DNA from: an uncultured Gammaproteobacteria bacterium
GTDB lineage: Bacteria; Patescibacteriota; Microgenomatia; Levybacterales; UBA12049
Assembly: GCA_964507055.1 (NCBI GenBank)
Contig: CAZDOJ010000001.1
Span: 465,313 to 529,312, forward strand
Reading direction: 5' to 3'
Length of the DNA: 64,000 bases
Part shown: positions 6,683-59,100 of the stretch, in pieces
Layout of the letters: every line of letters begins with the position of its first letter
Numbering within the stretch: the first letter of the stretch is position 1
Program-made: the position numbers and the translations under genes
The notes under the pieces: model-generated
What the model saw: only the letters and a program-made list of their open reading frames with translations
Databases searched by the model: none
What the model was told of the DNA's origin: nothing

Positions 6683-6706
6683 TTTAAATCACAGACAGGT
6701 TGATAA

Positions 6707-6724
6707 CTGACAAAATGCTGACAA
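6707..6724. promoter_or_regulatory. Direct repeat CTGACAA-N4-CTGACAA (11-bp period) just upstream of the GT operon start codon
   Basis: Seen in sequence 25-42 nt upstream of the 6682 start on the minus strand. It is a candidate binding site for a tandem-repeat-recognising regulator. Confidence 0.25.
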
Positions 6725-6919
6725 TATATACCAGTATATCAAAATGATCTCAACATTTTTATAGACAGATAGTAAGACATAAGTATACTTTGATGAGATT
6801 AACTTTCTTTACCAATCTAATCTACATATATATACTAATAGATAAATATAAAAATTACGTAAGAGACACCCCAGATAGCCCAACAGAAAGCAACCCCTTT
6901 TTTCAAACCTGACAAAAAC

Positions 6920-6950
6920 GAAAAAGCCCCACTCGCGTCCGAGCAGGGCT
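6920..6950 (-). terminator. Rho-independent terminator candidate for the repeat-protein gene
   Basis: On the minus strand a hairpin AGCUCC..GGGGCU-type stem (AGCCC/GGGCT arms) is followed by a U-run. Confidence 0.4.
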
Positions 6951-6973
6951 TAAAAGAATACAGATTCTTAATC

Positions 6974-7570
6974 TTACTGATTAAGTGTATTTGATGAACC
7001 ATTTACGGTTACATTAACAGTTGATCCTGCAGCACCTGTGGTAACTGAAGAAGTTCCACCAGTATTAAAACTGGAAGAATTACCTCCTGAGTTAGCATTT
7101 GAGTTCACTCCATTGAAGACATTACTTACGTTTGTCTGGATAGCAGTAAACCAGTTAGAGTTATTTACTTTCACACTGTTGTGAGAGAAAGCACCATTAT
7201 CTACTACGCCAACTGCTGTTTCAGCTTCACAGTTGCAATCTGAATTAACAGTTGCAGTATTTGTGTTACCTCCTACAGTTACATTTACAGTACTTGTAGC
7301 AGCTCCTGAAGTTACACTCGCGTTACCGCCAGTATTAAATCCTACCTTGTTTCCGCCAGTGTTTGACTTTGAGTTAACAACATTTTTCACATTTTGCTTG
7401 TTGGTTTGTGCAATAGTTGTTACTTTGACGTTCTTAACTTGTACCTTTGACTTGGAGAAAACACCATTATTGCCGACAACAACATCTGTTGCTGCGAAAG
7501 CTGCTGGAGCCATTGCTCCAAGCAAAATTGCTGATGTAGCAATAGCTGTTCCTAATTTAAGTTTGTTCAT
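6974..7570 (-). CDS. Secreted Asn/Gly/Ser/Thr-rich tandem-repeat protein (two ~80-aa repeats). Possible surface fibre or adhesin subunit.
   Basis: 198 aa. Signal peptide MNKLKLGTAIATSAILLGAMAPAAFA-AT. Internal repeats (..FNTGGNASVTSGAATSTVNVTVGGNTNT.. and ..FNTGGTSSVTTGAAGSTVNVTVNGSSNT..). Strong SD GAAAGGAGGTGA lies 5 nt upstream of the ATG. Confidence 0.65.
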   Translation of the reverse strand: MNKLKLGTAIATSAILLGAMAPAAFAATDVVVGNNGVFSKSKVQVKNVKVTTIAQTNKQNVKNVVNSKSNTGGNKVGFNTGGNASVTSGAATSTVNVTVGGNTNTATVNSDCNCEAETAVGVVDNGAFSHNSVKVNNSNWFTAIQTNVSNVFNGVNSNANSGGNSSSFNTGGTSSVTTGAAGSTVNVTVNGSSNTLNQ

Positions 7571-7593: not shown

Positions 7594-7643
7594 GATGAGC
7601 AAATAGTGTATTGCGAGCGATCACAAGACATTATTTGCTCATC
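7594..7643 (-). promoter_or_regulatory. 12-bp perfect inverted repeat (GATGAGCAAATA / TATTTGCTCATC) forming a 5'-UTR stem-loop upstream of the repeat-protein gene
   Basis: Arms at about 7594-7605 and 7632-7643 with a 26-nt loop. It sits immediately upstream of the SD and has no following U-run, so it is not a terminator. Confidence 0.3.
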
Positions 7644-7763: not shown

Positions 7764-7804
7764 AAAAAACCTCTTGAATATCCCCAAAAACAATATTCAA
7801 GAGG
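7764..7804 (-). terminator. Rho-independent terminator of the EEP-family gene
   Basis: 12-bp stem CCTCTTGAATAT / ATATTCAAGAGG with an 11-nt loop. The minus strand reads hairpin then UUUUUU. Confidence 0.6.
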
Positions 7805-7930
7805 TTGGATGATTTCTACAGGGCAGTCTCATAAATACTTAATTAGATTAATGGAATTGCTCTGTTAAGTCAATTGATATAAAAAATATTAAACTATATC
7901 AAAACTGGCTTTTTCTTCTTTATCTTATAA

Positions 7931-22526: not shown

Positions 22527-23063
22527 TTATGCTTCTTTGATGACACCGCAAACAATTCTTGGTCCACCACTGATTTTGGAACCAGATTCTCCACCAATAT
22601 ATGGATCTGGATTGCCATGGACCATAAGAGAAGTTCCTTCTCCTGATAAGATACTTAATGGACCGTCAGATAAAGTCACTCGTGTCGTTATAGCTTCAAG
22701 AGTACCTTTCCCAGATTCATCAATTGTAATATTTGGAAGATCTCCTGCATGATGAGGATGATTTACGTCAGGATCTGAATTACCGCTTGGACCTGGATCG
22801 AAATGGCCACCAGCACAAGTAAATGTACCACTGCAATCAGCTTTCTCATGAATATGTACAGCGTGTTTGCCTGGAATTAATTTGGCTGGGTCGCCTTCAA
22901 GATGCAATGTAATCTTTACAACCTTTTGATCATCAAATTGATATTCGACCAATTCGGCATTACCTTTTATGCCTTCCCCAAGCATTTCTGCCGTAGCTTT
23001 CTTATTTTCTTTTCCGTCAAAGGAGAATAGTTGCATGAAGAAATGATAGAAGATTTGCGACAA
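22527..23063 (-). CDS. sodC: Cu/Zn superoxide dismutase
   Basis: HAVHIHEKADCS, GGHFDP, HHAGDLPNI, LMVHGNPD. Confidence 0.85.
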   Translation of the reverse strand: MSQIFYHFFMQLFSFDGKENKKATAEMLGEGIKGNAELVEYQFDDQKVVKITLHLEGDPAKLIPGKHAVHIHEKADCSGTFTCAGGHFDPGPSGNSDPDVNHPHHAGDLPNITIDESGKGTLEAITTRVTLSDGPLSILSGEGTSLMVHGNPDPYIGGESGSKISGGPRIVCGVIKEA

Positions 23064-23896: not shown

Positions 23897-23984
23897 TATT
23901 TTACTCCTTTATGCCAAATAAATTCAATTACTCCCCTGTAAGCAATCCATGTATCCATCTTTTTTTGAAAGGAGGTGAATTAAT

Positions 23985-24920
23985 TTGAAAGCAGCACAAA
24001 TAAACGAATATAGTGAACAAGGAAATGTCCAGATCACTGATATCCCACAGCCAGAAGTTACAGAAGGAAAAGTGTTGGTAGAAGTTCATGCAGCAGGTGT
24101 TAATCCTATCGACTGGAAGGTCGCAACAGGTTATGCAAAAAGTATGGTCCAACATCCATTCCCTTTTACATTGGGTGGAGATATAGCAGGAGTTGTGAAA
24201 GCAGTCGGAGCTGGAGTTACCAACGTAAAAGAAAGTGACAAAGTGTACGGCCAAGCAAACATCCTTGGTGGACAAACAGGTGCGTTTGCAGAATTTGCAG
24301 TTACATCTGCAACGTCTTTAGGAATCAAACCTGAAAAACTCTCAATGTCCGAAGCAGGTGCAGCACCATTAACTGGAGTTAGTGCAATTCAAGCACTCTA
24401 TGACCACATCCAACTGAACAGTGGACAAAAAATACTTATCCACGGTGGAGCTGGTGGTATTGGAACAATGGCGATCCAAATCGCAAAACATATCGGAGCA
24501 CATGTCGCAACAACAGTTAGTGAATCTGATAGAGAATTTGTAAAAAGTCTCGGTGCAGATGAAGTAATCGATTATAAGAATCAAAAATTTGAAGATACTG
24601 TAAAAGAGTATGATGCAGTCTATGACTTAGTCGGTGGAGAAACATTCACACGTTCTTACGCAGTTCTAAAGCAAGGAGGTAAACTCGTCACAATGGCAGC
24701 TCAGCCAGATGAAGAACTTGCAAAGCAATACAATGTTGAAGCAATCGGACAATATACGGTTGTGAATACTGAGCGGTTAAACAAACTCTCTGAGCTCATA
24801 AATGATGGTGTGATAACAATACACATTGAAAAGACATTCCCACTTGATGAGTCCGCAAATGCATTAGTATATTTGCGAAATACTCCTCCAAAAGGTAAAG
24901 TGGTTATTGAAGTTAAATAA
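23985..24920 (+). CDS. NADPH:quinone oxidoreductase (MDR / zinc-binding alcohol dehydrogenase family)
   Basis: 311 aa with GGAGGIGTMAIQIAK. TTG start with SD AAGGAGGTGA. Confidence 0.8.
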   Translation: MKAAQINEYSEQGNVQITDIPQPEVTEGKVLVEVHAAGVNPIDWKVATGYAKSMVQHPFPFTLGGDIAGVVKAVGAGVTNVKESDKVYGQANILGGQTGAFAEFAVTSATSLGIKPEKLSMSEAGAAPLTGVSAIQALYDHIQLNSGQKILIHGGAGGIGTMAIQIAKHIGAHVATTVSESDREFVKSLGADEVIDYKNQKFEDTVKEYDAVYDLVGGETFTRSYAVLKQGGKLVTMAAQPDEELAKQYNVEAIGQYTVVNTERLNKLSELINDGVITIHIEKTFPLDESANALVYLRNTPPKGKVVIEVK

Positions 24921-52811: not shown

Positions 52812-53081
52812 TTATACCCTTCTGTGAGTAAACGTTCTGTAAAGCCACAAAAGAACGACTGATCCGAGAAGTGCGACGATAAAACTATATAAGTTAAATC
52901 CACTAACTCCTGTTTGGCCGAATGCATTCATGATGAAACCACCTAAGAACGCACCAACGATACCAACAATGATATTTCCGAGAATACCTTGTTGTGCATC
53001 AGTTCCCATTACCATGGAAGCGATCCAACCAACAATTCCTCCGAAAACTACATAAAGTAACAAATCCATATTATCTCTCAC
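52812..53081 (-). CDS. GlsB/YeaQ/YmgE-family stress membrane protein
   Basis: ..VVFGGIVGWIASMVMG.. Likely start at MDLLLY. Confidence 0.7.
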   Translation of the reverse strand: MRDNMDLLLYVVFGGIVGWIASMVMGTDAQQGILGNIIVGIVGAFLGGFIMNAFGQTGVSGFNLYSFIVALLGSVVLLWLYRTFTHRRV

Positions 53082-53169
53082 CTCCTTTCGTTTTGTTTAT
53101 CATAAAACTATCTTAACTGTAGGCAGTAAGAAACGGATGAGCCACTTGTAAGAAGAATATGAGAATTTA

Positions 53170-58575: not shown

Positions 58576-59085
58576 ATGCCAAATAAAACTATTTACGTCA
58601 GCGACAATGACCTACCACTCTTTGATGAAGCGAAAGACATCGCTGGAGAAGCTGTTTCTTCTGTTATCTCACGGGCACTCCGAGAATATGTCAGCAGACA
58701 TCGAAAGAAAGCCCAAGGGATGAAAGAAGTATCTGTCTTGGTCGGTAAAGCAAATGCTGAACTTGAAAAACGATTTGTCGGAGCTAAGATTGGGAACTGG
58801 AACGGATTTAGTGATGATAGAGAATGGTGGATGGAAGCTACAATGTACCGTACACAGAAAAACAATTGGGCGGTTAACCTTATCACCGTTTGTAAGGCAA
58901 GTCTCCTGACAAATAAAAGTGCTTGGAGAGCAAGTGGAGATTATCTGACGAATCCCCGACATGCCGAACTTATCGTCGGAGCAAAAGAAAAAGATTTTGA
59001 GAAAAAACTCCCACAAGATTTATTTACAACACTCACGAACCTTATGGAAAAAGATGAAACACCAGTTGAATTCTTGGATATTTAA
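58576..59085 (+). CDS. EXLDI-family protein (RHH-like N-terminus, C-terminal E-F-L-D-I)
   Basis: 169 aa. KTIYVSDNDLPLFDEAKDIAGEAVSSVISRALREYV. Ends ..PVEFLDI. TATAAT 8 nt before the ATG. Confidence 0.5.
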   Translation: MPNKTIYVSDNDLPLFDEAKDIAGEAVSSVISRALREYVSRHRKKAQGMKEVSVLVGKANAELEKRFVGAKIGNWNGFSDDREWWMEATMYRTQKNNWAVNLITVCKASLLTNKSAWRASGDYLTNPRHAELIVGAKEKDFEKKLPQDLFTTLTNLMEKDETPVEFLDI

Positions 59086-59100
59086 AGGAGGTGATATGAT

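What the first reader, a model, noticed from the sequence alone, without database searches (positions are those of the whole stretch)
6974..7570. Secreted Asn/Gly/Ser/Thr-rich tandem-repeat protein with a strong RBS, a 5'-UTR hairpin and its own terminator
After a Sec signal peptide (AFA-AT), two repeats of about 80 aa align closely (VVGNNGVFSKSKVQVKN...FNTGGNASVTSGAATSTVNVTVGG versus VVDNGAFSHNSVKVNNS...FNTGGTSSVTTGAAGSTVNVTVNG). They are joined by a CNCEAE linker. The composition and repeat structure are reminiscent of amyloid/curlin- or chaplin-like fibre subunits or cell-surface adhesins. The gene sits directly upstream of the glycan operon. It has a perfect GAAAGGAGGTGA SD and a 12-bp perfect inverted repeat in its 5' UTR, suggesting high and regulated expression.
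Basis: seen in the sequence. Interest (0 to 1): 0.55.

Follow-up and report, generated by a model that had tools for sequence, protein, structure and literature searches.

The report
Unanchored surface-repeat protein of Microgenomates bacteria
This is a real gene for a small secreted protein, probably made in large amounts, built from two copies of a previously undescribed 81-residue beta-strand domain. That domain fills thousands of unnamed proteins in the ultra-small CPR bacteria, including wall-anchored relatives encoded next to a sortase, so the protein is most likely a building block of the cell surface.

Summary
The gene is on the minus strand (7570..6974) and encodes 198 aa: a Sec-type signal peptide, then two 81-aa repeats joined by a CNC-containing linker. 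The repeats are 56% identical (z = 19.6 against shuffles). The gene has the strongest Shine-Dalgarno site of 51 window genes, a stable 5'-UTR hairpin and its own terminator.

It matches no Pfam, NCBIfam or PDB entry. The repeat nevertheless defines a large family: 2,517 clusters at 50% identity, with 1-9 copies per protein. The named members come from CPR bacteria, mainly Microgenomates (Levybacteria, Gottesmanbacteria).

In relatives, the two-repeat gene lies beside a sortase operon. Three proteins of that operon are paralogues of the same repeat family, and one carries a canonical LPXTG sorting signal. The free paralogues keep a near-perfect SD; the anchored ones and the sortase have almost none.

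Best reading (about 0.5): an abundant, unanchored subunit that assembles on wall-anchored paralogues. This resembles the short/long division of chaplins in logic, but there is no homology. Membership of the curlin or chaplin families is not supported, and an amyloid state is neither shown nor excluded.

The 5'-UTR hairpin and the link to the glycan operon are not conserved. A conserved ~85-nt terminated transcription unit lies upstream and has no Rfam match.

The parts
6974..7570 (-). Coding sequence of the 198-aa secreted two-repeat protein. The mature form is 172 aa, 17.1 kDa, pI 9.35.
7493..7570 (-). Sec / signal peptidase I type signal peptide (residues 1-26, cleavage AFA|AT). There is no lipobox.
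   Evidence: Ala26 at least 90% conserved. Judged by inspection; SignalP was not run.
7247..7489 (-). Repeat 1 of the 81-aa domain (residues 28-108)
   Evidence: HMM score 79.3 bits
7220..7246 (-). Inter-repeat linker NSDCNCEAE containing the CxC motif (Cys112, Cys114; 7229-7237). The first Cys column is at least 90% conserved in an alignment whose rows were selected to have a Cys in the linker (A3). Both Cys are absent from 8 of the first 60 family members listed.
6977..7219 (-). Repeat 2 of the 81-aa domain (residues 118-198)
   Evidence: HMM score 90.3 bits
7576..7587 (-). Extended Shine-Dalgarno GAAAGGAGGTGA, 5 nt before the ATG. It is the strongest of 51 window genes and is conserved upstream of orthologues in seven lineages.
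7594..7643 (-). 5'-UTR hairpin with 12-bp perfect outer arms plus inner stems. It is lineage-specific. It might stabilise the mRNA, but its function is unproven.
6914..6951 (-). Intrinsic terminator directly after the stop codon. A strong G+C-rich hairpin directly after the stop, mostly followed by a T-run, is seen in all five lineages examined.
7764..7900 (-). Conserved upstream transcription unit. It comprises a GATATAGTT box (7900-7892), a promoter TTGACT-17-TAATCT (7873-7845), a ~85-nt transcript carrying a CUGCCC box, and a terminator (7804-7764) with a conserved loop. It is 95-100% identical to L001 and recognisable in 12 further loci. It is a candidate sRNA or leader.

Best explanation
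The gene encodes the short, unanchored and probably very abundant member of a cell-surface protein family found in Microgenomates (CPR) bacteria. The family is built from a previously undescribed 81-aa all-beta repeat.

Proposed mechanism:
1. The protein is exported by Sec and its signal peptide is cleaved (inferred from the sequence).
2. The mature 17-kDa two-domain protein joins the outermost protein layer or fibres of the monoderm envelope. It would bind non-covalently to longer, acidic paralogues that are fixed to the wall by sortase (LPXTG) or to the membrane by a C-terminal helix (inferred).
3. Anchors would be made in small amounts and free subunits in bulk, which would explain the conserved contrast in ribosome-binding-site strength.
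4. Contacts could be helped by charge complementarity (target pI 9.3; long paralogues pI about 4) and by the CxC linker, through a disulphide or a metal ion (speculative).

Shown here: the domain family, its size, its paralogues in the sortase operon, and the expression signals. Inferred only: surface location of this particular protein, its abundance, and co-assembly.
For: Family:
- The 81-aa module occurs 1-9 times per protein, mostly 2 or 4.
- A profile search finds 2,517 representatives at E <= 1e-3 and 889 at E <= 1e-30.
- Named members are Ca. Levybacteria, Ca. Gottesmanbacteria, an ACD_48 aquifer genome and one labelled Ca. Parcubacteria.

Surface role:
- In L004-L007, L010, L011 and L013, the two-repeat gene is convergent with an operon encoding a ~420-aa four-repeat protein, a ~740-aa four-repeat protein, a ~380-aa three-repeat protein and a sortase.
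- The three-repeat protein ends in LP[AST/I]TG followed by a hydrophobic helix and a basic tail.
- The one ~740-aa protein whose sequence was read (L011) ends in a hydrophobic segment followed by a basic tail.
- Upstream neighbours are cell-wall genes: Peptidase_S11 and BacA.
- Published work reports sortase as near-ubiquitous in Microgenomates, and a Gram-positive-like envelope in CPR (PMC6744442).

Abundance signals:
- SD duplex energy is -20.6 kcal/mol, rank 1 of 51 genes in the window.
- The same SD scores about -20 in six of the seven lineages (-13 in L004). The neighbouring sortase, LPXTG, ~740-aa, S11 and Exo_endo_phos genes score between +2 and -7.
- Codon use is shifted: AAC 0.44 against 0.20 in the window overall, and ACG, TCG, GGG and GCC are not used.
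- A terminator-like hairpin follows the stop codon in five lineages.

Fold:
- AF2 with 69 diverse two-repeat units gives pLDDT 72.8, all beta.
- Covariation over 819 repeats gives strong antiparallel ladders: 26-42 with 64-79, 47-53 with 57-61, 8-12 with 47-53, and 3 with 16/18. The top couplings reach z = 12.

Charge:
- The two-repeat class has median pI 6.8 (target 9.35). Classes with three to nine repeats have pI about 4.
Against: - There are no expression, proteomic or imaging data for any family member. Literature searches found nothing on the family.
- The target has no anchoring or wall-binding domain, so it might simply be released into the medium.
- No sortase or paralogue lies within the 64-kb window.
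- The AF2 model is only moderately confident (pTM 0.41) and has no significant structural neighbour.
- SD strength and codon use are indirect proxies for abundance.
- The charge dichotomy is a correlation, not evidence of binding.
Confidence: 0.5

Rival explanations
1. Functional-amyloid subunit of the curli, Fap, HET-s or chaplin type. Each repeat would form one flat layer of beta-arches. The two layers of a molecule would stack, and molecules would polymerise in register into cross-beta fibres held by Asn/Gln ladders. The long anchored paralogues would nucleate the fibres and tether them.
For: - The composition is rich in N, G, S, T and V, with invariant Asn, Gln and Gly at the same positions of both repeats: Q55, N57, N74, N79 and Q145, N164, N169.
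- The inward-facing positions are small residues (A, V, S, N), and covariation is concentrated on one face of strands 26-42 and 64-79.
- The full-length monomer model built from close homologues was poor, pLDDT 49.
- The best fold hits, though not significant, are the FapC amyloid and other beta-solenoids.
- The split into short free and long sortase-anchored paralogues mirrors that of chaplins (the chaplin comparison rests on established knowledge).
Against: - There is no match to the Curlin_rpt or Chaplin models, or to any other Pfam model, at E <= 10.
- The FapC hit has TM-score 0.08 and E = 0.09.
- Strand 47-53 couples to two different partners through residues of the same parity. This fits edge-to-edge hydrogen bonding in a sheet better than a planar serpentine.
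- An 81-residue rung would be far larger than known solenoid rungs.
- Proteins with up to nine tandem repeats and LPXTG anchors resemble folded beads on a string.
- Same-position couplings between repeats 1 and 2 occur on both faces, so they are best explained by concerted evolution.
Confidence: 0.2
2. A released adhesin or effector used in the epibiotic lifestyle. It would bind a host-cell or mineral surface rather than forming part of the producer's own envelope.
For: - The protein has a signal peptide but no anchor.
- It is basic (pI 9.35), which would favour binding to anionic surfaces.
- CPR bacteria are widely thought to depend on hosts (PMC6744442).
Against: - The fixed syntenic position beside wall-biogenesis genes and the sortase operon points to the producer's own envelope, as does homology to wall-anchored proteins.
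- The architecture is very uniform across hundreds of lineages (196-202 aa, two repeats). That is unusual for host-specific effectors, which tend to diversify.
Confidence: 0.15
3. A surface-layer glycoprotein that is the dedicated substrate of the adjacent glycosyltransferase operon.
For: - The gene lies ~290 nt upstream of an operon with a weak DUF1616 match, GT2 and three GT4 genes on the same strand. In L001 that operon continues with a further GT2 and a DUF2206 gene.
- The protein is 26% Ser plus Thr.
Against: - The adjacency exists only in the window and its 82%-identical relative. Other lineages have the sortase operon in that place.
- A strong terminator separates the two.
- N-x-S/T sequons are not enriched: 7 observed against 8.7 +/- 2.2 in shuffles.
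Confidence: 0.1

Closest known systems
Chaplins of Streptomyces (short ChpD-H and long, sortase-anchored ChpA-C)
   Same: - One small secreted domain is used both in short, free, strongly expressed proteins and in longer paralogues that carry a sortase sorting signal.
- Conserved cysteines are present.
- Both are surface-assembly systems of a monoderm envelope.
   Different: - There is no sequence relationship; the Chaplin Pfam model does not match.
- The domain here is 81 aa and polar (45% N/T/S), not about 40-50 aa and strongly hydrophobic.
- Amyloid formation is unproven.
- The cysteines sit in the inter-repeat linker, not inside the domain.
Curli CsgA and Pseudomonas FapC functional amyloids
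   Same: - Secreted, with imperfect tandem repeats rich in N, Q, G, S and A.
- Asn, Gln and Gly are conserved at equivalent repeat positions.
- FapC is the top, though non-significant, fold hit.
   Different: - No Curlin_rpt match.
- The repeat is 81 aa, against about 20-35 aa.
- No CsgB, CsgE, CsgF, CsgG or FapB-F type partners are encoded nearby.
- The organism is a monoderm.
- Covariation favours an antiparallel sheet.
Beads-on-a-string surface proteins of Gram-positive bacteria (SasG/Aap G5-E repeats, Big/Ig-like repeat adhesins, multi-domain S-layer proteins such as SbsC)
   Same: - Tandem all-beta domains of about 80 aa in variable copy number (1-9).
- Signal peptide, with LPXTG anchoring in some members.
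- Strong translation signals, a stable 5'-UTR hairpin in the window gene and a terminator-like hairpin after the stop, as in many S-layer genes.
   Different: - The target has no SLH, CWB2, G5 or Big domain and no anchor.
- At 17 kDa it is far smaller than typical S-layer proteins.
- The fold has no significant match in the PDB.
Sortase-dependent pilus gene clusters of Gram-positive bacteria
   Same: In relatives, a sortase is encoded together with three paralogous secreted proteins.
   Different: - Only one of the three carries LPXTG.
- The target lacks LPXTG, so it cannot be polymerised by sortase.
- No pilin motif or known pilin domain is detected.

Membership tests
Curlin repeat family (CsgA/CsgB, PF07012) | Match to the Curlin_rpt profile | tested here: not met
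   No Pfam hit at E <= 10 for the protein. No Curlin hit among 62 repeat units at E <= 1.
Curlin repeat family (CsgA/CsgB, PF07012) | Dedicated partners (CsgB nucleator, CsgEFG secretion) encoded nearby | tested here: not met
   Neighbours are glycosyltransferases, Exo_endo_phos, Peptidase_S11, BacA and sortase.
Chaplin family (PF03777) | Match to the chaplin domain profile | tested here: not met
   No Pfam hit at E <= 10.
Chaplin family (PF03777) | Short free and long sortase-anchored paralogues sharing one domain | tested here: met
   A two-repeat free protein lies beside a three-repeat LPXTG protein plus sortase in L004, L006, L010, L011 and L013. This is an analogy of design, not evidence of homology.
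Functional amyloid in general | Cross-beta, in-register stacked structure; binding of amyloid dyes | not testable with these tools
   AF2 and covariation are ambiguous. Biophysical experiments are needed.
Parallel beta-solenoid fold | Successive rungs stacked in parallel, giving contacts at a constant sequence offset | tested here: inconclusive
   Within a repeat only constant-sum (antiparallel) couplings are seen. Same-position couplings between repeats exist but occur on both faces, as expected from concerted evolution. Foldseek hits to solenoids are not significant.
Sec-secreted protein (signal peptidase I substrate) | Basic n-region, hydrophobic h-region, A-x-A cleavage site | tested here: met
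   MNKLK / LGTAIATSAILLGAM / APAAFA|A. The site is conserved in the family. This was judged by inspection; SignalP was not available.
LPXTG sortase substrate | C-terminal LPXTG, hydrophobic helix and basic tail | tested here: not met
   The target ends ...GSSNTLNQ, directly after repeat 2. Paralogues in relatives do carry the signal.
Bacterial lipoprotein | Lipobox with Cys at +1 | tested here: not met
   There is no Cys before residue 112.
S-layer protein | Known wall-anchoring module (SLH, CWB2 or similar) | tested here: not met
   No Pfam or NCBIfam domain.
S-layer protein | Self-assembly into a two-dimensional lattice; among the most abundant cell proteins | not testable with these tools
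   Only proxies are available: the strongest SD in the window, its own terminator, and biased codon use.
New 81-aa repeat family of Microgenomates (defined here) | Two matches to the repeat profile, with the GNGAxS, Q-x-N, NTGGN, NTGG and TGxA motifs | tested here: met
   Two domains score 79.3 and 90.3 bits. The full-length protein is 37-82% identical to the 64 homologues aligned from the 70 found.

The most novel reading that the evidence does not exclude
The 81-aa repeat family is the main building material of the outer protein layer seen on ultra-small Microgenomates cells, whose component proteins do not appear to have been identified. It would assemble by a chaplin-like division of labour. 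Bulk short subunits such as this one would polymerise, possibly by Asn/Gln-ladder stacking, on rare sortase-anchored and membrane-anchored paralogues. Production would be governed by the conserved ~85-nt RNA unit upstream, a new cis- or trans-acting regulator.
Probability: 0.15. Interest if true: 0.75.

Novelty: new variant of a known kind. Interest (0 to 1): 0.5.

Why it matters
CPR bacteria (Patescibacteria) make up a large share of bacterial diversity. Most of their secreted proteins are unannotated, and the literature searches run here found no description of their surface proteins.

This analysis turns one 'hypothetical protein' into a defined domain family with more than 2,500 clusters, clear genomic ties to sortase and wall synthesis, and a testable assembly model of free and anchored paralogues. 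That gives concrete targets for antibodies, cryo-ET labelling, heterologous expression and metaproteomic searches. The family also merits a Pfam entry.

The conserved small transcription unit upstream is a candidate new RNA element in the same locus.

Tried and rejected
- Pfam, NCBIfam and PDB searches, by single sequence and by profile, gave nothing. A Coat_X hit for 2 of 62 repeats at E = 0.1 is chance level.
- AF2 with 65 close homologues gave pLDDT 49 and was discarded. A second run with diverse two-repeat units gave 72.8.
- The search for related loci with the alignment failed for lack of a conserved stretch. The single-protein scan of genomes gave only two loci, with uninformative record titles.
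- Covariation across the two-repeat unit was dominated by same-position couplings between repeats and could not separate stacking from concerted evolution.
- The 5'-UTR hairpin is not a conserved regulator. Its arms do not recur elsewhere in the window, so it is not a repeated element.
- Rfam gave no family for the UTR or for the upstream element.
- N-glycosylation sequons are not enriched.
- No paralogue, sortase or RTX-repeat neighbour lies in the window.
- Five literature searches found no description of the family.
- A leader-peptide reading of the upstream element was considered. A short ORF runs from a conserved AUG to a stop inside the terminator arm in most copies. The frame and the peptide are not conserved in L015-L017, so this reading is left open.

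Full report
**1. Observation**

The ORF at 6974-7570 is real but is read on the minus strand: ATG at 7570, 198 codons.

- **Signal peptide.** The N-terminus (MNKLK / LGTAIATSAILLGAM / APAAFA|ATD) has the three regions of a Sec signal peptide, with Ala at -3 and -1. There is no lipobox. Ala26 is at least 90% conserved in 65 aligned homologues.
- **Repeats.** Residues 28-107 and 118-197 align without gaps at 45/80 identities, with 58% DNA identity. The alignment score is 19.6 standard deviations above shuffles. This is an old duplication, not a recent one.
- **Linker.** NSDCNCEAE carries the only two cysteines.
- **Composition.** The mature protein (172 aa, 17.1 kDa, pI 9.35) is 81% N/V/T/S/G/A and has no Pro, Met, Arg or Tyr.
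- **Shine-Dalgarno.** GAAAGGAGGTGA (7587-7576) sits 5 nt before the ATG. Its predicted duplex with the anti-SD is -20.6 kcal/mol, the best of 51 genes in the window, most of which have little or no SD. The 11-mer AAAGGAGGTGA occurs four times in 64 kb against 0.02 expected.
- **5'-UTR hairpin.** The 12-bp inverted repeat (7643-7632 / 7605-7594) is perfect and unique in the window. It folds into a -27.6 kcal/mol hairpin, z = -5.6.
- **Terminator.** A 12-bp G+C-rich hairpin with a T-run (6951-6914) follows the stop codon.
- **Downstream operon.** After a ~290-nt gap come a gene with a weak, below-threshold DUF1616 match, a GT2 gene and three GT4 genes on the same strand.

**2. A large unannotated family**

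No Pfam or NCBIfam model matches even at E <= 10, and the only PDB sequence hit is chance level (E = 0.53). A word-indexed search found 70 homologues, nearly all 196-202 aa. The named ones are from Candidatus Levybacteria, and the closest is 82% identical.

A profile of 65 sequences was scored against 1.84 billion cluster representatives. It found 2,517 proteins at E <= 1e-3 and 889 at E <= 1e-30, many of about 400-520 aa and one of 926 aa.

An HMM of the single repeat shows that the unit is an 81-aa module. It occurs 1-9 times per protein, mostly twice or four times. The consensus is roughly xVxIsGNGAxSxNxVxVxNxxxTxVxQxNxAxVxNxVxxxAnTGGNxAxfNTGGxVxVxTGxAxsxVxVxNxxNxNxA.

Named longer members are from Ca. 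Gottesmanbacteria and from an ACD_48 aquifer genome. One two-repeat member is labelled Ca. Parcubacteria. The window (36.7% G+C) is therefore most likely from a Levybacteria-like member of the Microgenomates. This is an inference from homologue names.

The window holds no second copy.

A Cys pair (CC, CxC or CxxC) usually follows odd-numbered repeats. The first Cys column is at least 90% conserved in alignment A3, but that alignment was built from pairs selected for a Cys in the linker. Eight of the first 60 family members listed lack both cysteines.

Proteins with four or five repeats carry a conserved C-terminal tail of about 28 aa. Two-repeat proteins end with the repeat itself.

**3. Structure**

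AF2 on the full-length protein with close homologues was poor (pLDDT 49). A second run used the mature protein and 68 diverse two-repeat units cut from family members. It gave pLDDT 72.8 and pTM 0.41, entirely beta-strands, with the same strand pattern in both repeats.

Foldseek against the PDB found nothing significant. The best hits were the FapC amyloid and various beta-solenoids, at E >= 0.09 and TM-score about 0.1. Other fold libraries were unavailable.

I ran my own mean-field covariation analysis on 819 repeat units. It gave strong signals with a constant sum of positions:

- positions 26-42 with 64-79;
- positions 47-53 with 57-61, on the same register, so one long hairpin centred on NTGG;
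- positions 8-12 with 47-53;
- position 3 with 16 and 18.

This agrees with the AF2 strands and shows a specific, conserved antiparallel architecture.

The analysis does not fully separate a hydrogen-bonded sheet from the facing strands of beta-arches. However, strand 47-53 couples to two partners through residues of the same parity, which fits a sheet better. Covariation across the two-repeat unit was dominated by same-position couplings on both faces. That is the signature of concerted evolution, so it was uninformative.

**4. Genomic context gives the strongest clue**

The 82% orthologue (L001-L003) shares the window's layout. In more distant lineages the upstream side is kept: Peptidase_S11 divergent, then Exo_endo_phos, and sometimes BacA or an RTX-repeat protein. 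The downstream side is a convergent sortase operon.

The repeat HMM was scanned over these loci. In L004/L005, L006/L007, L010, L011 and L013 the three genes preceding the sortase are themselves members of the family:

- a ~420-aa four-repeat protein with the C-terminal tail;
- a ~740-aa four-repeat protein; the one read in full (L011) has a hydrophobic C-terminal segment followed by a basic tail;
- a ~380-aa three-repeat protein ending in LPATG, LPSTG or LPITG, followed by a hydrophobic helix and a basic tail, which is a canonical sortase substrate.

The domain is therefore displayed on the cell wall in at least some paralogues. Published work reports that sortase is near-ubiquitous in Microgenomates and that the CPR envelope is Gram-positive-like. 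It also reports MdbA- and VKOR-type disulphide machinery in CPR (PMC6744442), which makes an oxidised CxC linker conceivable.

**5. Expression signals are conserved and selective**

The two-repeat gene keeps GAAAGGAGGTGA or a near variant upstream in all seven lineages examined. The score is about -20 kcal/mol in six of them and -13 in L004. The four-repeat-with-tail gene, an extra three-repeat gene and the RTX-repeat neighbour also score between -13 and -21. The sortase, LPXTG, ~740-aa, S11, Exo_endo_phos and BacA genes score between +2 and -7.

A strong hairpin directly follows the two-repeat gene's stop codon in all five lineages examined, with a clear T-run in most. Codon use departs from the window average: AAC is favoured, and ACG, TCG, GGG and GCC are absent.

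Together these point to bulk production of the free paralogues and low production of the anchors.

The two-repeat class is neutral to basic (median pI 6.8), whereas the longer classes are strongly acidic (pI about 4).

**6. What is not conserved**

The 5'-UTR hairpin is absent from the 82% orthologue. The equivalent regions of seven other loci fold no better than shuffles or only slightly better (z from +0.9 to -2.1). No Rfam family matches it. It may stabilise this lineage's mRNA, but it is not a family feature.

The adjacency to the glycan operon is likewise confined to this lineage. A terminator intervenes, and sequons are not enriched.

**7. Mechanism proposed**

Export by Sec and cleavage after Ala26 would be followed by incorporation of the 17-kDa two-domain protein into the outer protein layer or fibres. 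It would associate with the wall-anchored and membrane-anchored paralogues. Charge complementarity and the CxC linker may contribute.

This follows the logic of chaplins (short free subunits, long sortase-anchored ones) or of an S-layer with separate anchor proteins. It is not homologous to either.

Confidence is about 0.5 for 'abundant unanchored envelope subunit'. The rivals are:

- a true amyloid subunit (0.2);
- a released adhesin or effector (0.15);
- a dedicated glycoprotein substrate of the neighbouring operon (0.1).

**8. Side finding**

Between Exo_endo_phos and the target, positions 7931-7760 are 95-100% identical to L001. The proteins are only 82% identical, and the rest of the intergenic region has diverged.

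The conserved part has these components:

- a GATATAGTT box;
- a canonical promoter (TTGACA-17-TATTCT type);
- a transcript of about 85 nt with a CUG(C/U)CC box;
- a 12-bp terminator whose 11-nt loop (UGUUUUUGGGG) is itself conserved.

A pattern scan of metagenomes found 12 further copies. Every copy whose upstream flank could be read lies just after Exo_endo_phos or next to Peptidase_S11.

The unit is followed by zero to two secreted-protein genes with strong SDs; those checked carry GAAAGGAGGTGA or a near variant. These are the target family in L020, L021, L025, the window and L001. In L008 and L013 an RTX-repeat protein precedes the target, and L016 and L023 have another secreted protein. 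The convergent sortase comes next. In L014, L019 and L024 the unit is followed directly by the sortase gene. It therefore behaves as an independent unit (a small RNA?) and not only as a leader.

In L006 a similar terminator sits about 10 nt before the target's SD, so read-through must contribute to expression there.

The C/U in the box varies together with a G/A in the loop: five of five C with G, and four of six U with A. This hints at a pseudoknot or an alternative pairing, but there are only 11 sequences and no correction for relatedness.

No Rfam family matches.

**9. Verdict**

The protein is a new variant of a known kind: a monoderm surface-repeat protein built from a previously undescribed domain. 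It is of moderate interest because it gives a concrete candidate for a component of the Microgenomates cell surface.

Noticed in passing
window 7764-7900 (minus strand); also L001, L008, L014-L025: A conserved ~85-nt transcription unit lies upstream of the target. It has a GATATAGTT box, a TTGACA-17-TATTCT type promoter, a CUG(C/U)CC box, and a terminator with a conserved UGUUUUUGGGG loop. It is 95-100% identical between the window and L001 and was found in 12 more metagenome loci at the same syntenic spot. In three loci no gene follows it in the same direction. It has no Rfam match. It is a candidate small RNA or attenuator. There is weak co-variation between the box and the loop, and a short ORF of non-conserved frame ends inside the terminator arm.
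   Followed up: partly
L004 7540-12381, L006 7436-12181, L010 7995-12579, L011 9045-12441, L013 8215-12606: The sortase operons next to the target's orthologues encode three paralogues of the same 81-aa repeat family. They differ in their C-terminal ends: LPXTG in one, a conserved ~28-aa tail in another, and in the third a hydrophobic C-terminal segment (read only for L011).
   Followed up: yes
Family members P0071-P0219 (for example P0187, P0199, P0150): Proteins with four or five repeats end in a conserved ~28-aa tail of the form ..LPxG..(L/F)xFDLxxLLxxLG... It matches no NCBIfam sorting-signal model. It may be a new C-terminal anchoring or sorting motif.
   Followed up: partly
L008 4786-5937, L011 4760-5935, L013 4759-5943, L010 upstream of 6001: A secreted ~390-aa protein with RTX Ca-binding repeats (HemolysinCabind) lies about 60 nt upstream of the target orthologue. 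In the three loci where it was scored (L008, L011, L013) it carries a strong SD. It may be a second abundant surface component.
   Followed up: no
window 23968-23978 (+), 53078-53088 (-), 59084-59094 (+): Only three other sites in the window carry the same perfect SD core AAAGGAGGTGA. One precedes a zinc-type alcohol dehydrogenase or quinone oxidoreductase gene (23985-24920). One precedes a small, Gly-rich, hydrophobic ORF of up to 89 aa (52812-53081; its likely start is the ATG just downstream of the SD). One precedes an unexamined ORF. Most genes in the window have little or no SD.
   Followed up: partly
L001 8660-9019 (minus strand of the locus): The 82%-identical relative has a 119-aa gene between the target and the glycan operon. 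It is missing from the window: tblastn finds no hit, and the ~290-nt gap at 6683-6973 holds only promoter-like matches.
   Followed up: no
window 22527-23063 (-): A Cu/Zn superoxide dismutase gene (Sod_Cu, E = 3e-29) is present in this CPR-like genome. This may say something about oxygen exposure.
   Followed up: no
window 7229-7237 (Cys112-x-Cys114) and the family-wide linker: A Cys pair (CC, CxC or CxxC) usually follows odd-numbered repeats, and these are normally the only cysteines in the protein. They may form an intermolecular disulphide or bind a metal. CPR genomes are reported to encode MdbA- and VKOR-like oxidoreductases (PMC6744442).
   Followed up: partly
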